In this document: positions 35,740-42,768 of the stretch, piece by piece
Layout of the letters: every line of letters begins with the position of its first letter
Numbering within the stretch: the stretch's first letter is position 1
From: Desulfosoma sp.
Lineage (GTDB): Bacteria > Desulfobacterota > Syntrophobacteria > Syntrophobacterales > DSM-9756
Assembly (NCBI GenBank): GCA_037481835.1
Contig: JBBFKW010000003.1
Span: forward strand, 1 to 64,000
Length of the DNA: 64,000 nucleotides
Direction: 5' to 3'
The notes under the pieces: generated by a model
Database searches by the model: none
Seen by the model: only the letters and a program-made list of their open reading frames with translations
What the model was told of the DNA's origin: nothing
Translations under genes and position numbers: made by a program

Positions 35740-36870
35740 TCAACGGGATTGAAACAGCGGTGCGTATTGGCCGTAGCCTTCCTTTTCCAGATCTTCGGCG
35801 GGGACGAACCGCAGGGCCGCCGAGTTGATGCAGTAGCGCCGCCCCGTGGGAGGCGGGCCGTCATCAAAGACATGGCCCAGGTGCGAGTCCCCGTGGCGGC
35901 TTCGCACTTCAGTGCGGACCATGAAAAGGGACCTATCGGCCCGTTCCACGATGTTGTCCGGCTCGAGAGGGCGGGTGAAACTGGGCCAGCCCGTTCCGGA
36001 ATCAAACTTGTCAATCGAGCTGAACAAAGGTTCCCCGGACACCACATCCACGTAAATGCCCGGGCGTTTGTTGTCCCAATACTCGTTTTGGAACGGAGGC
36101 TCCGTGCCGTTTTGGCGGGTGACCTTGTACTGCATGGGGGTAAGAATTTTTCGCAGCTCCTCGTCCTTGGGCCTGGAAGTGAAGCGCCGCGACGGATCGT
36201 GCGCCTTGGCGCCGGCGTTATCCTTCCAGACGCTTTTCAGGAAGGCGTCGCGCCCGGAAGTCGCCCGGTAAAAATGGTATCGGACCGGGGATTTTTGGTA
36301 GAAATCTTGATGGTAGTCTTCGGCCTTGTAAAATTTTTCAAGCGGGAGGATTTCCGTCACAATGGGCTTGGAGAACCGTCCCGATTCCTGAAGCTTCTGG
36401 CGGGACGCCTCGGCCAGGCGCTTTTGAGCCTGGTCGTGGTAAAAGATGGCCGTGCGGTATTGGGGCCCTCGATCCACGAATTGCCCGCCCGGGTCCGTGG
36501 GGTCGATGTGCCGCCAGAAAACATCGAGCAGCTGTTCATAGGTCACCTTGGAAGGGTCGTAGACGACCTGCACCGCTTCCACATGCCCGGTGCGTCCCGA
36601 TGAAACGTCTTCGTACCTGGGGTTTTCCACATGGCCTCCGGTGTAGCCCGAGAGGACTTCCAGCACTCCGTCAACCTTTTCAAAATCCGATTCCAGGCAC
36701 CAAAAACATCCGCCGGCGAATGTCGCCGTCTTTCTCTCATGCGTTTCATCCCTCATGGCATCCGCTCCGTAGCCCCAAAGGGCCGATAATAAAAAAATCG
36801 TGATTATCGCCATTGTGACACGCCGAAAAGGTCCTCGTGCCTTCATGAGACCAATTGCCGCCTTGATCAT
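35740..36870 (-). CDS. msrAB: Bifunctional peptide methionine sulfoxide reductase with N-terminal hydrophobic leader
   Basis: GGCFWC, AEDYHQ (MsrA); [20 protein letters not shown] (MsrB); RBS GGAGG before ATG 36870. Confidence 0.93.
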
Positions 36871-37054
36871 CGCCGCCTCCGTGGATCGCACGTCTTTTCC
36901 GGTCCATCTCATTTGTCCACGGGATTTCATTAATCACGACAGGGCATCCCTGCACGGCCCCAGTCGACGCAGCGGCACCCGCCGACATGGCGGCCAACCA
37001 CGCACGGGGGCGCCGTGGAGGTTTTGCAGGAAAGCAAGGGTTGTTGGGCATCGG

Positions 37055-37285: not shown

Positions 37286-37450
37286 TCAGCTTTTCTTACT
37301 CGTTTGCGCCGTGAAGACGGACATGAGCTGTTTGACCTTGGCGCTCTTGCATTCAGGGCATTGGACCGGGTTTTTCCCATGCTCAGAAATGCTCTGAATA
37401 ATGGTGAATTCCTTTTGGCAGGACTGGCATTGGTATTCGTACGTCGGCAT
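37286..37450 (-). CDS. FmdB family zinc-ribbon protein
   Basis: MPTYEYQCQSC...CPECKS...LMS.F; RBS GGAGG. Confidence 0.88.
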   Translation of the reverse strand: MPTYEYQCQSCQKEFTIIQSISEHGKNPVQCPECKSAKVKQLMSVFTAQTSKKS

Positions 37451-37585
37451 GGCGTCCTCCTCTTGGATTGACAAGGAATCGTGTCACGCCTCTCGGCGGA
37501 AAGCGCCCTGGGCGCTTTTCCCTTTATACGTATCATGGCGGGTCGGAGCCGCCAAGATGCCCTTCCGATACTCGTCCGCAAGGCC

Positions 37586-37882
37586 TCAACAACATCCCGA
37601 ATCCAGGCTGCAGCAGCCCTCCCCCGAACGGCCGATCATGGTGTTCAGCACCGCCTGGGCGCACCCGACGCCGGCCTGGACGAAGATGGCGTTCGCCGGG
37701 CAGTTTCGCGCACACGCGCCGCACTCCATGCAGGCGTCCCGATCCACCATGCGCGTCGTCCCGTTTTCCCGGACAAAGACACCATGAGGGCACACAACGG
37801 AACAGAGACCGCAGCTTACGCACTTTTCGGGATCCCATCGGAGCGTCACCACGTCCTTCAAATACACAAAACGGCCGATCAT
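37586..37882 (-). CDS. hgcB: Mercury methylation ferredoxin HgcB
   Basis: Two 4Fe-4S motifs incl. CMECGACA.NCP, GVGCA, C-terminal Cys pairs; follows hgcA; RBS GGAGG. Confidence 0.93.
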   Translation of the reverse strand: MIGRFVYLKDVVTLRWDPEKCVSCGLCSVVCPHGVFVRENGTTRMVDRDACMECGACARNCPANAIFVQAGVGCAQAVLNTMIGRSGEGCCSLDSGCC

Positions 37883-37925
37883 GAAAGGCTCCTCCACGGG
37901 GCGAGGCAAGGGACGCAGGTCCCCA

Positions 37926-39086
37926 TCACGCCCCAGCACACAGCGCCCACAGCCACAACCCCACAAGTCCGGCAAAGAGGGCGATTTCCAAGGGTACGGC
38001 CCAACGCATTTCCCGGCGCACGCCGGAAAGGGAAGTGTAGGTCGAGGCTCCCGTAAAGTTCATGGCGAGGAAGGCGGAGACGGCCAAGAGGCCCGAAATC
38101 CAAGAGCCGGCTTCCAGAGGACGGCGAACCGCCGGGTCCAGAAAAGGCCAAAGGATCGCGACGAGAATCCCGCCGGCGAAAAGCCCTTTCGTCGTAAAGG
38201 CCCGGCCGGGAAGCCATGGGAGCAAAAGAGGAGTGAGGACGGCTCCGGCGGCGATTCCCGCCGCAAGAGCGGTCAGGGGACTCCAAGACGCCCTCCATGC
38301 CGCGCTCAGGAAAGGGCCTTTCGAAAGGATCCCGCCGAGGACGAAAAAAGCCACCGCCGCAAGCCCCGCCCATTTGAGGCTGTGGACCAGTTCCACGGGG
38401 ATGAGCGCCATTCGTTCGCGGAAGGGAAATCGTTTGCGCCGCATGGCCTCCGAAGCCTTGTAGCCTTCATCCAAATAGGCGGGAAGGTCTCGAGCGTCCA
38501 CGGGGCCGAAAAGGGCCCGGAATCCCGTTCGAGCCTTGACATGCCGGGCCGCCACGCCGGGGGCCGAAAGCTGAGGCAGGACCACGGTGCCGTGAGAAAC
38601 GATTTCTTTAAGGCGGCAGGCCTGGATGCGGAAAACCACTTCATCCGTGCCGAAGGTGCCTTTGCCCGCAGCGCACCACACATTGATCCCCTTGGTGTCC
38701 ACAACCAGGATCCACGCGTCTCGTCCCGGCAAAGCCGCTCGCAACGCGTCAAAACTCAATTTGTAATTGGCCGTGACCAAGACGGGATCTTTCGGGCCGG
38801 GATTTCCCAAGGCGTACAAGCCGGGATCCACCCTGTAGCGCATCCGCCCGTATCCCCAGCGGACCTTGAAGGCGCCCCATCTATCCCGGGCTGTGAGAGC
38901 GGACGAAACGCGCGGCACGGGGCCGACGGATGTTTCCATGCGGCCGACGACGAAGGGCTGATCCATCCGAGGGGGGCTCACCTGAGCCCGCCTTTTGGGC
39001 GGTCAGCACGAAGATTTCGGCGTCAGCACAGGGCCGCAGCACGGTTGGGCGGTTTGGCGAAGAACATCTGTCGTTCGTGTATCCAT
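37926..39086 (-). CDS. hgcA: Mercury methylation corrinoid protein HgcA, predicted selenoprotein (UGA at codon 28)
   Basis: Cap helix GINVWCAAGKGTFGT, VTANYKLSFD, LPQL.APGV, C-terminal TMs, NFTGASTYTS.SGV; the frame stays open from 38981 up to ATG 39086 except for TGA at 39003-39005. Confidence 0.93.
38974..39005 (-). promoter_or_regulatory. Putative bacterial SECIS element of hgcA
   Basis: TGA-CCGCCCAAAAGGC-GGGCTC-AGGT-GAGCCC: 6-bp stem with a G-containing tetraloop beginning 19 nt after the UGA. Confidence 0.65.
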
Positions 39087-39206
39087 CCGGGGCATCCTTT
39101 CGCGTCGTGGGGAACAGTTTTCACCCAGCCGTGAACTAACCCCGGCAAAGGATTTTTGTCAATCGCCGACGTCTGCCCTAGGATTCCCCCAGGCAGGCGG
39201 ATCCCC

Positions 39207-40481
39207 TCACGGAGGGTTTTCCCGTTCGCAGGCCCTCTTTTCAGCGCCGTCCGGATTGGGAGCAATGCCGAGGAAGGCCAGTGCGGCGCCGGTGGCCAAA
39301 AGGCCCAGGGCCGTGTGGCCGTGCAGGCTGTGGGTGTGCTCCCAGAGCCACGGGCCCGTCAAGGCTCCGGCGACGCGGCCGGCCACAATAAGGCTGTAGT
39401 TGGCCGAAAGCCAGCGGCCTCGCGCGTTGGGGTTGAGTTCCGAAACATAAGGGAAGGAGCTGACCACGGTAAATTCGAAAGAATAAGCGATCCAGCCGAA
39501 CACGGCGATGGAGACGCCGAGAGAGGCCGGCGCGACCATGAGGGCTGCATAGGCCGTGGCCGCGCCCAGAAGCCCTGCGGCAAGAGCGCGTTTCTTGCCC
39601 AATCGATCCACGATCAGAGCGACACTGAGCTCCGCCGCCAATTCCATGAAACCGATCACCGTGGAAAGCAGGCCCAAAGAACCGATGCCGACGTCAAAGC
39701 GCGTTTCCATCCATGCGCCGTAGACGAGCATCAGGCTCTCGTTGGCAAAGAGTGCAAAGAAGGTCACCCCCAAGGCGGGCCAAAGCTTCCGATGGGGCGT
39801 GGAGCGCGAGGCCCTGCGGGCCGCTTGGCCGGGCCCATGCCCCGAATCCGGCCTTCTCATATCCGGGATTTTTCCGGCGCACTCATGCCGCCTTTGGTAA
39901 GGATCGAAGCCCGTCCCGGAACCCTGCGGCGCCGCGGGGAGGCGTGTCGTTGCCAGGAAAAGAGCGATCCCGATCAGTCCCAAGGCCGCATAGGGGACAT
40001 GCCAGCCGTATCGGGCGATGAGAAACCCGCCCAGCGGCATGCCGACGAACCATCCCATGGACCAGGACGATTCCAGCAGCCCCAAGGCCCGGGCTCGTCC
40101 GGCATAGGGGACATGAGCGCTGACGTAAGACTGGACCGCCGGATTGTAGACGGCGTGGGCCAACCCCATGAGGACGAAGCCCGCGAGGACCCACGGGTAG
40201 GTTCGATAAAAACCGATGAATAGACCGCTCAAGGCAAAAAAGGCCAGGCCCGTGAGGAGCCCGACCTTTTCTCCCTTCTTCTCGGAAAGGATGCCGAAGA
40301 CAATGCCGGAAAGGCCGACGAAGGACCGTGCGGCCACCAGAAACCCGGCCTGTTCCATGCCGATCCCCAGACCGCGGGCGATGGTGGGAAGGAAAGGGTA
40401 GGCCAACCGCACCCCGGCATTGAGCCATAGGCGGCTGAAGATGAGAATCCACCATCGGCTCGGCGGCATTCCCAAAAGCAC
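39207..40481 (-). CDS. MFS transporter
   Basis: About 12 hydrophobic segments, motif A-like G.LSEKKG and DRLGKK; AAGGAGG 8 nt before GTG 40481. Confidence 0.85.
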   Translation of the reverse strand: MLLGMPPSRWWILIFSRLWLNAGVRLAYPFLPTIARGLGIGMEQAGFLVAARSFVGLSGIVFGILSEKKGEKVGLLTGLAFFALSGLFIGFYRTYPWVLAGFVLMGLAHAVYNPAVQSYVSAHVPYAGRARALGLLESSWSMGWFVGMPLGGFLIARYGWHVPYAALGLIGIALFLATTRLPAAPQGSGTGFDPYQRRHECAGKIPDMRRPDSGHGPGQAARRASRSTPHRKLWPALGVTFFALFANESLMLVYGAWMETRFDVGIGSLGLLSTVIGFMELAAELSVALIVDRLGKKRALAAGLLGAATAYAALMVAPASLGVSIAVFGWIAYSFEFTVVSSFPYVSELNPNARGRWLSANYSLIVAGRVAGALTGPWLWEHTHSLHGHTALGLLATGAALAFLGIAPNPDGAEKRACERENPP

Positions 40482-40641
40482 CTGAAGGGCCTCCTTGGAG
40501 CTTCGGCATGATAGGCCCGCAAGAGAATACCCCCTGGCGGAGGTGGTCGTAGTCCCGGCGGGCCGCCCAAAGCCCGGGACATTACCAGAAGGCCCTCCCG
40601 TTGTCGCGCAAAAACAGCTCGAGATCCCATGCCGTCGAGCA

Positions 40642-41004
40642 TCAACTCCAATGGGCTTCCGCATTCGGGGCCGTCGAGGGGGTGAGCTCGCCTTTTTGGA
40701 AGCAGGCGATAGCTTCCTTTACGGTACCCGAAACCCCCACGTAAACGGGAATGCCTGCGGCCTGAAGCACCTGGAAAGCCTTGGGACCGCAGTGCCCGGT
40801 GAGGACGGCGTCGGGTTTCTTTCTGGCGATCAAGGATGCCGCCTGCACGCCGGCGCCCTGAGCGGCCTGAAGATTTTGGGTGTTGGAGACGACCTCAAAG
40901 GCCAGGGTTTCCGTGTCCACCAAAAGGAAACACGCAGCCCGGCCGAACCTCGGATCCACCTGGGAATCCAGATCCTTTCCCGTACAGCTCACGGCGACTT
41001 TCAT
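40642..41004 (-). CDS. NifB/NifX family (FeMo-co-binding-like) Orp-type protein
   Basis: VDPRFGRA..F, GAG.QAA, TG.CGPKAF..L, C-terminal HW. Confidence 0.88.
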   Translation of the reverse strand: MKVAVSCTGKDLDSQVDPRFGRAACFLLVDTETLAFEVVSNTQNLQAAQGAGVQAASLIARKKPDAVLTGHCGPKAFQVLQAAGIPVYVGVSGTVKEAIACFQKGELTPSTAPNAEAHWS

Positions 41005-41064: not shown

Positions 41065-42324
41065 TCAATGATCGCAGACATTGGCGCCGCATTCCAAGGT
41101 GCCTTCCAAATAGCGCCGCACAAGATTGCGGGGATCGTCGGCGGGAGCACCCGTCAGCACCCGGATCCCCCTCTCTTCAAAAAGACCGATGGCCCGTTGT
41201 CCCATCCCTCCGGCAATGACCATCCCCACACCCTGATCGGCCAGCCAACGCGGCAGAAGGCCGGGCTCATGAGGAGGTGGTGTCACTTCGGTGTGGTTTT
41301 GGATTTGCGAGTCGCGGACGTCCACAAGGACGAACTTTTCACAATGCCCGAAGTGGTTGCAAAGCTTTCCGTCGGCGGTGGGAACGGCGATGCGCAAGAC
41401 GTTCGGTTCCATGGCGGGTTTCTCCTCGTTTTGATCTGTCGGGCCTTTTTCGGTTTTGAAGCCGAGCGGCGGGGAACACCGTTCGATGACCTGATCCGTC
41501 AAAGCGTTCAAGGCGCAGGCAAACGGACCGTTTTCCGATCGACCGAGCTGCAGGGTCGTTCCGGCATCCCCGGCGTTCACCACGCTGAGATCGAAGGGCA
41601 AACTCCCCAGGAAGTGAACCTGCATCCGCTCGGCGGTTTTCCGGCCCCCTCCGGATCCAAAAAGGGGCACTTCCTTGCCGCAATGCGGGCACACCAACGC
41701 ACTCATGTTTTCCACCAGGCCCAGGATCGGCACATGGGCCTGACGGCAGAAGTTGATGGATTTTCGAACGTCCTGCAGCGCGATTTCCTGGGGCGTGGTG
41801 ACGATCACGGCGTGAACGTCCGGGATGGTTTGCGCAATGCTTAAAGGCTCATCGCCCGTTCCCGGCGGGCAGTCCACGATCAGGTAGTCCAGACTGCCCC
41901 AATGGACCTGACCGATAAACTGCTTGATGACCCCATGTTTCACGGGCCCTCTCCAAATCACGGCGGCATCGGGATCATCCAGCAGGAGCTGGATGGACAC
42001 CACATGGAGGTTTTCCGTCAGGGCATGGGGAACCAATCGCTTTTGGTCGTCCACGTGAAAAGTTCCCTGAACCCCGAGGATCTTGGGGATGCTGGGCCCG
42101 TGGAGGTCCACGTCGAGGAGCCCCACCATGAAGCCTCTTCGTGCCAGGGCAACGGCCAAGCCCGCCGCCACACTGCTTTTGCCCACCCCGCCTTTCCCGC
42201 TCATGACCAACAGCTTGTGGCCGATGCGGCGCAATTGTTCGTGCACCAAACGGTCCTCGTCCCTTTCGGCATGGGCCGTCTTGGCCGAGCATTCAGAATC
42301 TCCGTGATGACATGCCTGCGTCAT
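41065..42324 (-). CDS. Mrp/ApbC Fe-S carrier ATPase fused to NifB/NifX domain (MrpORP-like)
   Basis: SGKGGVGKS, DVDLHGP, WRGP, DCPPGTGD, ENMS...CPHC; C-terminal HFGHC and PPPHEPGLLP; RBS GGAGG. Confidence 0.9.
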   Translation of the reverse strand: MTQACHHGDSECSAKTAHAERDEDRLVHEQLRRIGHKLLVMSGKGGVGKSSVAAGLAVALARRGFMVGLLDVDLHGPSIPKILGVQGTFHVDDQKRLVPHALTENLHVVSIQLLLDDPDAAVIWRGPVKHGVIKQFIGQVHWGSLDYLIVDCPPGTGDEPLSIAQTIPDVHAVIVTTPQEIALQDVRKSINFCRQAHVPILGLVENMSALVCPHCGKEVPLFGSGGGRKTAERMQVHFLGSLPFDLSVVNAGDAGTTLQLGRSENGPFACALNALTDQVIERCSPPLGFKTEKGPTDQNEEKPAMEPNVLRIAVPTADGKLCNHFGHCEKFVLVDVRDSQIQNHTEVTPPPHEPGLLPRWLADQGVGMVIAGGMGQRAIGLFEERGIRVLTGAPADDPRNLVRRYLEGTLECGANVCDH

Positions 42325-42409
42325 GATGTCTTGAACCTCCTTTGCATGAACGCGATGAATCCGTGCATGGCTTGAAAAAGTTTTTAGGAATGAACCCCGT
42401 GAAGCCATA

Positions 42410-42426
42410 GTCAAGGACCGTGCCAG
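42410..42426 (-). promoter_or_regulatory. Sigma54 (-24/-12) promoter
   Basis: Minus strand CTGGCACGGTCCTTGAC (TGGCAC-N5-TTGA) about 90 nt upstream of the Mrp gene. Confidence 0.65.
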
Positions 42427-42768
42427 GCGCGCGTTCCCATGGCGGGCCTTCTCCGAATGCTTTTGGGAGGTGGGAAACCGGGGGGGCGCGGAGCCGGCGC
42501 GGACCCGGCCGGGCGAAGAAAAGGGAACAAAATGCATCCCCTAAAATTTCTCCCGGTGCCGTTTTGAGGCGACGGGGCGGGGGAGCGGGCTGGGGCGATG
42601 GCGCGGGAGTTTCGGGGGTTTTATTGATCTGTGGGCAAGGAAACAGTGTTGGGGTTCGCTGGGGCGGTGGTTTGCGGAGGGAAACTCTCTTCGGCTTGGA
42701 AGGCGGGACGGGCCCGAAAAGACAGTGCGCAGCGGGAGGAAGGGAGCCGTGGGGGAAGGGCGCAGGGG

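What the first reader, a model, noticed from the sequence alone, without database searches (positions are those of the whole stretch)
38974..39086. Hidden selenocysteine N-terminal extension of HgcA (CC...CU) with SECIS
Seen: upstream of the called GTG (38981) the frame reads MDTRTTDVLRQTAQPCCGPVLTPKSSC-UGA-PPKRRAQVSPPRMDQ from ATG 39086, which has AAGGA 8 nt upstream. The UGA (39003-39005) follows a Cys and precedes a GGGCTC-AGGT-GAGCCC hairpin at SECIS distance. Established: Cys-Sec N-terminal extensions have been reported for some HgcA proteins. Inference: a 386-aa selenoprotein with a CC/CU metal-binding arm, making Hg methylation selenium-dependent. Standard ORF callers truncate it.
Basis: partly seen in the sequence, partly recalled or inferred. 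Interest (0 to 1): 0.8.

Follow-up and report, generated by a model that had tools for sequence, protein, structure and literature searches.

The report
Selenocysteine arm of mercury-methylating HgcA
The mercury-methylating gene hgcA in this window almost certainly starts 35 codons earlier than gene callers say and reads one UGA as selenocysteine, which is a real feature but one already published for this protein family.

Summary
On the minus strand, hgcA (NF040863, 429 bits) can be extended from the called GTG 38981 to ATG 39086, through a Cys codon and an in-frame TGA (39008-39003). A stable hairpin starts 13 nt after the TGA.

- **Machinery:** the genome holds tRNA-Sec, selA, selB and selD.
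- **Relatives:** 18 of the 20 related genomes with an hgcA orthologue keep a TGA at the same codon. One has Cys-Cys there and one has Cys-Cys further upstream.
- **Hairpin:** it covaries; 5 of 6 pairs show compensatory changes and 0 of 500 shuffles reach the score.
- **Structure:** an AlphaFold model leaves residues 1-35 disordered, so this is a flexible Cys-Cys...Cys-Sec arm.

The feature is not new. Haft and Gwadz (bioRxiv 10.1101/2022.07.06.499078) reported that most HgcA proteins are selenoproteins with a Cys-Sec motif in an N-terminal extension. This scan has also met it before in other genomes. Here the local motif is S-C-U-P-P, not the published P-C-U-G-P.

The claim that methylation becomes selenium-dependent is not supported. 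Cys-type homologues are common. This genome also carries a Sec-shaped tRNA-Cys(GCA) beside a second selB, a published system reported to read Sec UGA codons as Cys.

Verdict: a real, ordinary new member of a known kind.

The parts
37926..39086 (-). Full-length hgcA coding sequence (386 codons plus the TGA stop at 37928-37926), read through the in-frame UGA. An alternative in-frame ATG lies at 39095.
   Evidence: NF040863 HgcA_corrinoid scores 429.2 bits against a cut-off of 275. Relatives align from the Met at 39086.
39095..39099 (-). Shine-Dalgarno-like AAGGA, 8 nt before ATG 39086.
   Evidence: Read directly.
38982..39086 (-). The 35 codons that table-11 ORF calling omits. They encode the N-terminal arm with Cys16-Cys17 and Cys27-Sec28 (numbering from ATG 39086).
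   Evidence: The AlphaFold2 model gives pLDDT below 50 for residues 1-35, numbered from ATG 39095.
39036..39041 (-). TGC-TGC encoding the upstream Cys-Cys pair in a P-C-C motif, conserved in the 4 genomes of this genus.
   Evidence: L020-L023 all have P-C-C ten residues before S-C-U.
39003..39008 (-). TGC-TGA encoding the Cys-Sec dipeptide; the UGA is at 39005-39003.
   Evidence: The TGA is at the same codon in 18 of 20 relatives' orthologues. It is replaced by Cys in L037.
38974..38989 (-). Upper SECIS-type stem-loop: a 6-bp stem and an A-G-G-U loop, 13 nt after the UGA.
   Evidence: for the fold. One search shows 5 of 6 pairs with compensatory changes. One search shows 91.2% of cells paired against 78.6% in shuffles (0 of 500 reach it), and 34-63% in slid controls.
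38957..39007 (-). Extended hairpin that encloses the UGA in its base.
   Evidence: The minimum-free-energy structure (-28.3 kcal/mol, z = -2.47).
37586..37882 (-). hgcB (dicluster ferredoxin), with Cys rather than Sec at its ninth Cys and a tail ending in Cys-Cys. The ATG at 37882 is the likely start; the ORF is open from TTG 37975.
   Evidence: NF040864 HgcB_ferredoxin scores 114.6 bits against a cut-off of 99. The ORF is listed.

Best explanation
hgcA is a selenoprotein gene. Translation starts at ATG 39086, or less likely at ATG 39095. At codon 28 the ribosome meets UGA. The hairpin 13 nt downstream acts as a bacterial SECIS and recruits SelB carrying Sec-tRNA(Sec), so selenocysteine is inserted and translation continues into the corrinoid-binding and five-helix membrane domains.

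The product is a 386-residue HgcA whose first 35 or so residues form a disordered arm carrying Cys16-Cys17 and Cys27-Sec28.

By inference, the arm is a soft-metal-binding 'fishing line'. It would chelate Hg(II), or take up the methylmercury product, and pass it to or from the methyl-cobalt corrinoid held under the cap-helix Cys. It would work alongside the Cys-Cys tail of HgcB.

What is shown here: the gene's identity, the UGA, the hairpin and its covariation, the Sec machinery, the Sec/Cys interchange in homologues, and the predicted disorder of the arm. What is inferred: actual Sec insertion, the start codon, and the metal hand-off role.
For: - **Gene identity:** hgcA and hgcB both score above their curated cut-offs. 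The cap-helix motif G-I-N-V-W-C-A-A-G-K is present, and its N-V-W-C core is invariant in 20 of 20 aligned orthologues.
- **Machinery in the genome:** tRNA-Sec at 74.5 bits, confirmed by ARAGORN as SeC with anticodon tca; selB at 411 bits; selA at 627 bits; selD at 377 bits, itself with one in-frame TGA.
- **Conservation of the UGA:** 18 of 20 other genomes with an orthologue (E below 1e-80, out of 40 relatives searched) have one in-frame TGA at the aligned codon. The frame is open for at least 99 nt upstream of the TGA, with a start codon, in 19 of 19.
- **Downstream start is unlikely:** in 5 of 19 orthologues no ATG, GTG or TTG lies between the UGA and the conserved D-Q-P-F block.
- **Sec/Cys interchange:** L037 has Cys at the Sec column. 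All 18 readable loci, of 20 fetched among the 55 no-TGA matches of the phylum sample that cover the Sec position, carry Cys in the arm: 15 Cys-Cys, 2 C-G-C and 1 single Cys.
- **Wider sample:** in 72 readable loci of the 80 from named genomes, 27 have TGA exactly 60 codons before P-G-x-Y-A-x-G (21 preceded by Cys, 4 by Gly, 2 by Thr). That is the same register as in the window.
- **Hairpin:** covariation is documented.
- **Arm:** predicted disordered, with confident fold from about residue 41 (mean pLDDT 82.2).
- **Literature:** Haft and Gwadz state that most HgcA proteins are selenoproteins with a Cys-Sec motif N-terminal to the earlier predicted start (abstract and section 25 read). A 2026 review table lists HgcA NF040863 with motif CU (passage read).
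- **Analogy for the role:** Cooper et al. describe the flexible Cys-Cys tail of HgcB as a possible carrier of Hg(II) or methylmercury (PMC7305189, passages read).
Against: - There is no direct evidence of Sec insertion or of the start codon, from either protein or RNA data. No RNA run was listed.
- The flanking residues are S-C-U-P-P, whereas P-C-U-G-P was 'perfectly conserved' in the 20 proteins of the preprint.
- No Rfam family matched the hairpin.
- The hairpin lies inside coding sequence for a conserved peptide, so part of its conservation could come from protein constraint.
- The relatives are kin, so the shuffle controls overstate significance.
- The genome also has a Cys-inserting Sec-like tRNA system, so the residue inserted may not always be Sec.
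- The metal hand-off role rests on analogy only.
- Cooper et al. expressed what they called full-length HgcA of strain ND132 in E. coli. By Haft and Gwadz's reading, the then-annotated sequence lacks the arm; my inference is that the arm is not needed for expression of the protein. Which construct was used was not checked.
Confidence: 0.88

Rival explanations
1. The UGA is recoded, but wholly or partly as cysteine. A Sec-shaped tRNA-Cys(GCA) (selC*-like) and its neighbouring second SelB (selB*-like) would deliver Cys to the SECIS-marked UGA. The arm would then be Cys-Cys rather than Cys-Sec, perhaps when selenium is scarce.
For: - Contig C21 holds a 92-nt tRNA that scores over the tRNA-Sec cut-off (53.1 bits). 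It has anticodon GCA, an 8-bp acceptor stem, a long variable arm, discriminator U and an encoded CCA.
- About 1.1 kb downstream on the same strand lies a full-length selB paralogue (277.8 bits, covering model positions 2-579 of 581).
- The tRNA is conserved at 86-100% identity in 11 of the 40 relatives, including 7 of 8 in the same family; a twelfth relative gave only a 25-nt partial match.
- Mukai et al. describe selC* tRNA-Cys with U73 and a GCA or UCA anticodon, followed by selB* in Syntrophobacterales and Desulfobacterales (PMC5389517, passages read).
Against: - The canonical tRNA-Sec, selA, selB and selD are all intact, and selD itself needs UGA recoding.
- Keeping TGA rather than TGC in 18 of 20 relatives suggests that Sec is selected for.
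- Of the 18 relatives with TGA-type hgcA, 11 gave no match to this tRNA, so it is not needed for the recoding.
- The primary paper on Cys decoding (Vargas-Rodriguez 2018) was not held, so I know it only through citing papers.
Confidence: 0.08
2. The UGA is a true stop. A 27-codon upstream ORF would be a leader peptide, the hairpin a regulatory structure, and HgcA would start downstream at GTG 38981 or ATG 38966.
For: GTG 38981 and ATG 38966 exist and are kept within the genus. The folded domain begins only at about residue 41, so a truncated protein could still fold. Selenium-sensing UGA leader ORFs have been noted elsewhere in this scan (unchecked notes).
Against: - The leader and the body stay in one frame in 19 of 19 orthologues.
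- Cys-type homologues read straight through the same position.
- 5 of 19 orthologues have no start codon between the UGA and the conserved D-Q-P-F block.
- The residues after the UGA (P-P-K..A-Q) are conserved as protein within the genus.
Confidence: 0.03
3. The TGA is a sequencing or assembly error, or the gene is a decaying pseudogene.
For: None found. One relative (G012, L040) has an additional TAG and is split over two contigs.
Against: Contigs of the independent run X3 are identical over the site, and the diverged strain in X4 keeps it. The same codon is TGA in 18 relatives. The rest of the gene is intact and scores 429 bits.
Confidence: 0.01

Closest known systems
Selenoprotein form of HgcA (Haft and Gwadz, bioRxiv 10.1101/2022.07.06.499078; listed under NF040863, motif CU, in the review PMC13188914)
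   Same: A single in-frame UGA in a 5' extension of hgcA; a Cys-Sec dipeptide; an extended length within the published 363-400 aa range (386 here); Sec machinery in the genome; Cys-rich 'packed' versions in non-Sec homologues.
   Different: The pentapeptide is S-C-U-P-P, whereas P-C-U-G-P was invariant in the preprint's 20 proteins. This genus adds a P-C-C pair ten residues upstream. The sister genus, which includes Desulfacinum, has G-G-U-C or R-G-U-S, with no Cys before Sec.
C-terminal Cys-Cys tail of HgcB, and the vicinal Cys pairs of mer-operon proteins, as discussed by Cooper et al. (PMC7305189)
   Same: A disordered terminal segment carrying a vicinal pair of soft-metal ligands next to the corrinoid site. 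HgcB in this window also ends in Cys-Cys.
   Different: The arm is on HgcA, is N-terminal, and carries selenium. No mutagenesis or binding data exist for it, whereas the HgcB Cys pair has been tested in vivo.
Bacterial SECIS of the E. coli fdhF type (recalled, not taken from any call)
   Same: A stem-loop inside the coding sequence a few nucleotides after the UGA, with G and U in the apical loop, a bulged lower stem, and the UGA at the base of the extended hairpin.
   Different: The sequence is unrelated and no Rfam model matches it. The spacing is 13 nt to the upper stem, or 9 nt if the three lower pairs are counted. SelB binding was not tested.
selC* tRNA-Cys with selB* (Mukai et al. 2017, PMC5389517; Vargas-Rodriguez et al. 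2018, known only through citing papers)
   Same: The genome has a Sec-shaped tRNA with a GCA anticodon and U73 upstream of a second selB. This is the arrangement described for Syntrophobacterales.
   Different: It lies on another contig (C21) and has no shown link to hgcA. No cysS* was looked for.

Membership tests
HgcA (NF040863, mercury methylation corrinoid protein) | Profile score above the curated cut-off | tested here: met
   429.2 bits against a cut-off of 275, residues 60-383.
HgcA (NF040863, mercury methylation corrinoid protein) | Cap-helix motif N-(V/I)-W-C-A-(A/G)-G-K with the cobalt-ligand Cys | tested here: met
   G-I-N-V-W-C-A-A-G-K is present. N, V, W and C are invariant in 20 of 20 aligned orthologues. 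The role of the Cys is taken from PMC7305189.
HgcA (NF040863, mercury methylation corrinoid protein) | C-terminal domain of five transmembrane helices | tested here: met
   The model has five long helices at 225-257, 262-294, 300-318, 326-345 and 356-388.
HgcA (NF040863, mercury methylation corrinoid protein) | Adjacent hgcB ferredoxin gene | tested here: met
   NF040864 scores 114.6 bits against a cut-off of 99. The gene starts 43 nt downstream on the same strand.
HgcA (NF040863, mercury methylation corrinoid protein) | Hg methylation activity | not testable with these tools
   Needs a culture or an enzyme assay.
Selenoprotein form of HgcA (Haft and Gwadz) | One in-frame UGA in a 5' extension, giving a 363-400 aa protein | tested here: met
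   UGA at codon 28; 386 aa from ATG 39086.
Selenoprotein form of HgcA (Haft and Gwadz) | Cys-Sec dipeptide | tested here: met
   TGC-TGA at 39008-39003.
Selenoprotein form of HgcA (Haft and Gwadz) | Pentapeptide P-C-U-G-P | tested here: not met
   The motif here is S-C-U-P-P. Among the 18 Sec-type orthologues aligned, 14 have C-U, 3 have G-U and 1 has S-U, with varied flanks. This was an observation on 20 proteins in the preprint rather than a stated definition.
Selenoprotein form of HgcA (Haft and Gwadz) | Genome encodes the Sec insertion machinery | tested here: met
   tRNA-Sec, selB, selA and selD are all above their cut-offs.
Selenoprotein form of HgcA (Haft and Gwadz) | Selenium actually present in the protein | not testable with these tools
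   Needs 75Se labelling or mass spectrometry.
Bacterial SECIS element | Stem-loop shortly downstream of the UGA with G in the apical loop (criteria recalled from the bSECISearch description, not from a call) | tested here: met
   A 6-bp stem starts 13 nt after the UGA, with loop A-G-G-U. z = -2.47 and 0 of 200 shuffles fold as well.
Bacterial SECIS element | Structure conserved by compensatory change in orthologues | tested here: met
   5 of 6 pairs have changes on both sides. 91.2% of cells are paired, against 78.6% in shuffles (0 of 500 reach it) and 34-63% in slid controls. Caveats: the sequences are related and the region is coding.
Bacterial SECIS element | Binding by SelB and UGA read-through | not testable with these tools
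   Needs a reporter or binding assay.
selC*/selB* Cys-recoding system (genome feature outside the window) | tRNA of at least 80 nt with a Sec-like shape, GCA or UCA anticodon and discriminator U, upstream of a second selB | tested here: met
   92 nt, 53.1 bits on RF01852, anticodon GCA, discriminator U, with selB paralogue at 277.8 bits downstream. The criteria are quoted.

The most novel reading that the evidence does not exclude
In this lineage the hgcA UGA is decoded in two ways. Canonical SelB with tRNA-Sec inserts selenocysteine. The conserved Sec-shaped tRNA-Cys(GCA) with its own SelB paralogue inserts cysteine when selenium is short. The metal-handling arm of HgcA would then switch between Cys-Sec and Cys-Cys with selenium supply, and the rate of methylmercury production would be tuned by selenium rather than simply dependent on it.
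Probability: 0.2. Interest if true: 0.55.

Novelty: new member of a known kind. Interest (0 to 1): 0.25.

Why it matters
HgcA makes methylmercury, the form of mercury that accumulates in food webs. Surveys of hgcA rely on gene calls that cut off the selenium-bearing arm.

This window adds one more well-supported case, in a relative of Desulfacinum (65-66% identity to its HgcA). It shows that the residues flanking Sec are more variable than the published P-C-U-G-P motif.

It also raises a practical caution. Where a Sec-like tRNA-Cys with a second selB coexists with the canonical machinery, 'UGA plus SECIS' cannot be read automatically as selenium dependence. None of this changes what is already known in kind.

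Tried and rejected
- **Rfam:** a scan of 38850-39150 at E up to 10 gave only two weak plus-strand snoRNA chance hits and no SECIS family.
- **Promoters and terminators:** the scan of 37400-39400 found no minus-strand promoter-like site and no terminator. The single hit was on the plus strand, so it says nothing about the transcript start.
- **Expression data:** no RNA holder was listed, so only DNA contigs could be laid.
- **Earlier notes near this place:** only an unrelated envelope locus came up.
- **Primary paper on Cys decoding:** PMC6103700 is not held. I relied on passages in three citing papers.
- **Literature searches:** 'hgca' with 'selenocysteine' found 4 papers, and 'hgca' with 'n-terminal extension' found 2. 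Only the Haft preprint and one review bear on the matter. The preprint's supplementary alignments (Figure S7) could not be seen.
- **Phylum sample:** by my count of the table, 41 of the 119 HgcA matches hold an in-frame TGA. In one of these (G184) the alignment starts at residue 49, so its TGA lies elsewhere. Another 55 cover the Sec position without a stop, and 23 start after it. I did not inspect the TGA positions in this sample, and I fetched only 20 of the 55. Two of those 20 (L052, L058) gave no motif and were dropped.
- **Named-genome loci:** 8 of 80 loci had no motif and were dropped. Two flagged TGAs (L099, L149) were not in register, and I counted them as non-Sec.
- **Protein alignment:** L040 was left out of alignment A2 because it is cut by a TAG and a contig end.
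- **Association with the Sec-like tRNA:** the tRNA is a lineage trait, not linked to TGA-type hgcA. Of the 18 TGA-type relatives, 11 gave no match to it. G004 is Cys-type yet has it, and three genomes without hgcA have it.
- **Not run:** a complex prediction, because HgcA-HgcB binding is textbook and the arm is disordered.

Full report
**What is in the sequence.**
- AAGGA lies at 39099-39095, and ATG 39086 follows 8 nt later.
- The open frame encodes a P-C-C motif (Cys codons at 39041-39036) and then S-S-C followed by TGA (39008-39003).
- It continues without a break into the ORF that a table-11 list starts at GTG 38981 (351 aa).
- Read through, the protein has 386 residues from ATG 39086. A second in-frame ATG at 39095 would add three more, but the Met at 39086 is the one that aligns with relatives in the same genus.
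- The hairpin GGGCUC-AGGU-GAGCCC occupies 38989-38974, 13 nt after the UGA. The 66-nt stretch folds into a longer hairpin (39007-38957) with the UGA in its base, at -28.3 kcal/mol, z = -2.47, and 0 of 200 shuffles fold as well.
- The GTG that ORF callers choose sits in the apical loop of this hairpin.

**What the gene is.** The product matches the curated HgcA model (429.2 bits, cut-off 275). The next gene matches HgcB (114.6 bits, cut-off 99). The cap-helix motif with its cobalt-ligand Cys is present and invariant in 20 of 20 aligned orthologues. An AlphaFold2 model built on that alignment (mean pLDDT 82.2, pTM 0.73) shows the corrinoid-binding domain followed by five long helices. Residues 1-35 have pLDDT below 50 and confident structure begins at about residue 41. 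The extension is therefore a disordered arm in front of an otherwise standard HgcA.

**Is the UGA decoded?** The genome (99.4% complete) has the full machinery:
- tRNA-Sec at 74.5 bits, called SeC with anticodon tca by ARAGORN
- selB at 411 bits
- selA at 627 bits
- selD at 377 bits, which itself carries one in-frame TGA

Of 40 related genomes, 20 have an HgcA orthologue at E below 1e-80. Eighteen of these have one in-frame TGA at the aligned codon, one (L037) has Cys-Cys there, and one (L038) has Cys-Cys further upstream and no TGA.

In all 19 TGA-bearing genes, the window's included, the frame upstream is open for at least 99 nt and holds a start codon. In 5 of the 19 no ATG, GTG or TTG lies between the UGA and the conserved D-Q-P-F block, so a downstream start would cut into conserved, confidently folded sequence.

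The wider samples agree:
- In a phylum sample of 401 genomes, 119 have HgcA at E of 1e-60 or better. By my count of the table, 41 matches hold an in-frame TGA, 55 cover the Sec position without a stop, and 23 begin after it.
- I fetched 20 of the 55. Of these, 18 were readable, and their arms carry Cys-Cys (15), C-G-C (2) or a single Cys (1).
- Of the 80 best loci from named genomes, 72 were readable. In 27 the TGA lies exactly 60 codons before P-G-x-Y-A-x-G, the same register as in the window. It is preceded by Cys in 21, Gly in 4 and Thr in 2. The other 45 have no TGA in register, and many of them show Cys-Cys or C-x-C at the corresponding place.

This is the Sec/Cys interchange expected of a true selenoprotein site.

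**The hairpin.** In an alignment of the 19 TGA-bearing genes, RNAalifold places a 6-pair stem at the same distance from the UGA, and 5 of the 6 pairs show compensatory changes. Counting pairs gives 91.2% of cells paired against 78.6% in column shuffles (0 of 500 reach it), a covariation score of 0.425 against 0.226 (0 of 500), and only 34-63% paired when the partner is slid by 1-3 columns. Two caveats apply: the sequences are kin, and the region also encodes a conserved peptide. No Rfam family matches it.

**Independent DNA.** Contigs of a run from another study (X3) are identical over the TGA. A strain about 9% diverged (X4) keeps the TGA, changes the preceding Cys codon synonymously at 39006, and carries a +1/-1 indel pair at 39052/39058 that restores the frame of the arm. 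Both observations fit coding constraint upstream of the UGA. No RNA run was listed.

**Comparison with what is known.** Haft and Gwadz (bioRxiv 10.1101/2022.07.06.499078; abstract and section 25 read) extended 20 of 20 HgcA genes upstream through a single UGA to 363-400 aa. They found P-C-U-G-P around the Sec and concluded that most HgcA proteins are selenoproteins. They also noted Cys-rich versions and occasional Sec in HgcB, and they state that reference data were added to NCBI's annotation pipeline. A 2026 review lists HgcA (NF040863) with motif CU. Three earlier follow-ups in this scan reached the same reading on other genomes.

The window's gene is therefore a new member of a known kind. 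What differs is minor:
- The flanks are S-C-U-P-P.
- The genus has an extra P-C-C pair ten residues upstream.
- The sister genus, which includes Desulfacinum, has G-G-U-C or R-G-U-S, so the Cys before Sec is not universal.
- HgcB here has Cys, not Sec, at its ninth Cys, and it ends in Cys-Cys.

**How it most likely works.** The recoding step follows the established bacterial mechanism. SelB with Sec-tRNA(Sec) binds the hairpin and decodes the UGA.

The role of the arm is inferred. It is a flexible segment with two vicinal pairs of soft ligands beside the methyl-corrinoid site. That resembles the disordered Cys-Cys tail of HgcB, which Cooper et al. propose carries Hg(II) or methylmercury and whose double mutation cut activity by 95% in vivo (PMC7305189, passages read). 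I put about 0.5 on a metal hand-off role for the arm.

**Selenium dependence.** First, Cys-type orthologues are common. Second, contig C21 of this genome carries a 92-nt tRNA that scores above the tRNA-Sec cut-off but has anticodon GCA, discriminator U and a long variable arm. About 1.1 kb upstream of a second full-length selB (277.8 bits), it matches the selC*/selB* arrangement that Mukai et al. describe for Syntrophobacterales (PMC5389517). Later papers say this system decodes Sec UGA codons as Cys (the primary paper was not held).

The tRNA is conserved in 7 of 8 other genomes of the family, at 86-100% identity across the 11 relatives with a full-length match. It shows no specific association with TGA-type hgcA. 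It leaves open that the arm can be made with Cys when selenium is short.

**Verdict.** The core interpretation is supported and the selenium-dependence claim is not. The kind is already published, so interest is low to moderate.

Noticed in passing
Own genome, contig C21:7235-7326 (minus) and C21:4149-6113 (minus); loci L002 and L010. Outside the window.: A 92-nt Sec-shaped tRNA with anticodon GCA and discriminator U lies about 1.1 kb upstream of a second full-length selB paralogue. This matches the published selC*/selB* Cys-recoding arrangement. The tRNA is conserved at 86-100% identity in 11 of 40 relatives, 7 of 8 in the same family.
   Followed up: partly
Own genome, contig C9:80257-81183 (locus L017). 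Outside the window.: selD itself contains one in-frame TGA, so selenophosphate synthetase is probably a selenoprotein here too.
   Followed up: no
window 39207-40664 (minus) and 37286-37474 (minus): An MFS transporter gene lies directly upstream of hgcAB and a small FmdB-type zinc-ribbon gene lies downstream. The MFS gene is syntenic in 6 of 6 hgcA loci of the same family and the zinc-ribbon gene in 5 of 6. Neither is found in the 14 loci of the neighbouring family. The zinc-ribbon family is listed as a UxxU selenoprotein in a review table, but here it has Cys.
   Followed up: partly
L024-L026, L070, L076 (the sister genus, which includes Desulfacinum): The Sec in HgcA is preceded by Gly and followed by Cys or Ser (G-G-U-C, R-G-U-S), so the Cys-Sec order is reversed or the Cys is lost. 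L039 has S-U, and two loci have T-U.
   Followed up: partly
window 35740-36930 (minus); 40642-41004 and 41065-42537 (minus): The neighbours are a fused MsrA-MsrB methionine sulfoxide reductase, a NifX/NifB-like FeMo-cofactor-domain protein, and an Mrp/NUBPL-type P-loop ATPase fused to the same domain. No link to hgcAB was examined.
   Followed up: no
L040 (G012:C178) and G012:C35: The HgcA orthologue of one relative carries an extra TAG, and its halves match on two contigs. It may be a broken gene or an assembly break.
   Followed up: no
window 37926-37928 (minus): The true stop of hgcA is also TGA, 43 nt before the hgcB start. Termination there presumably depends on the absence of a SECIS. 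I did not look for a hairpin behind it.
   Followed up: no
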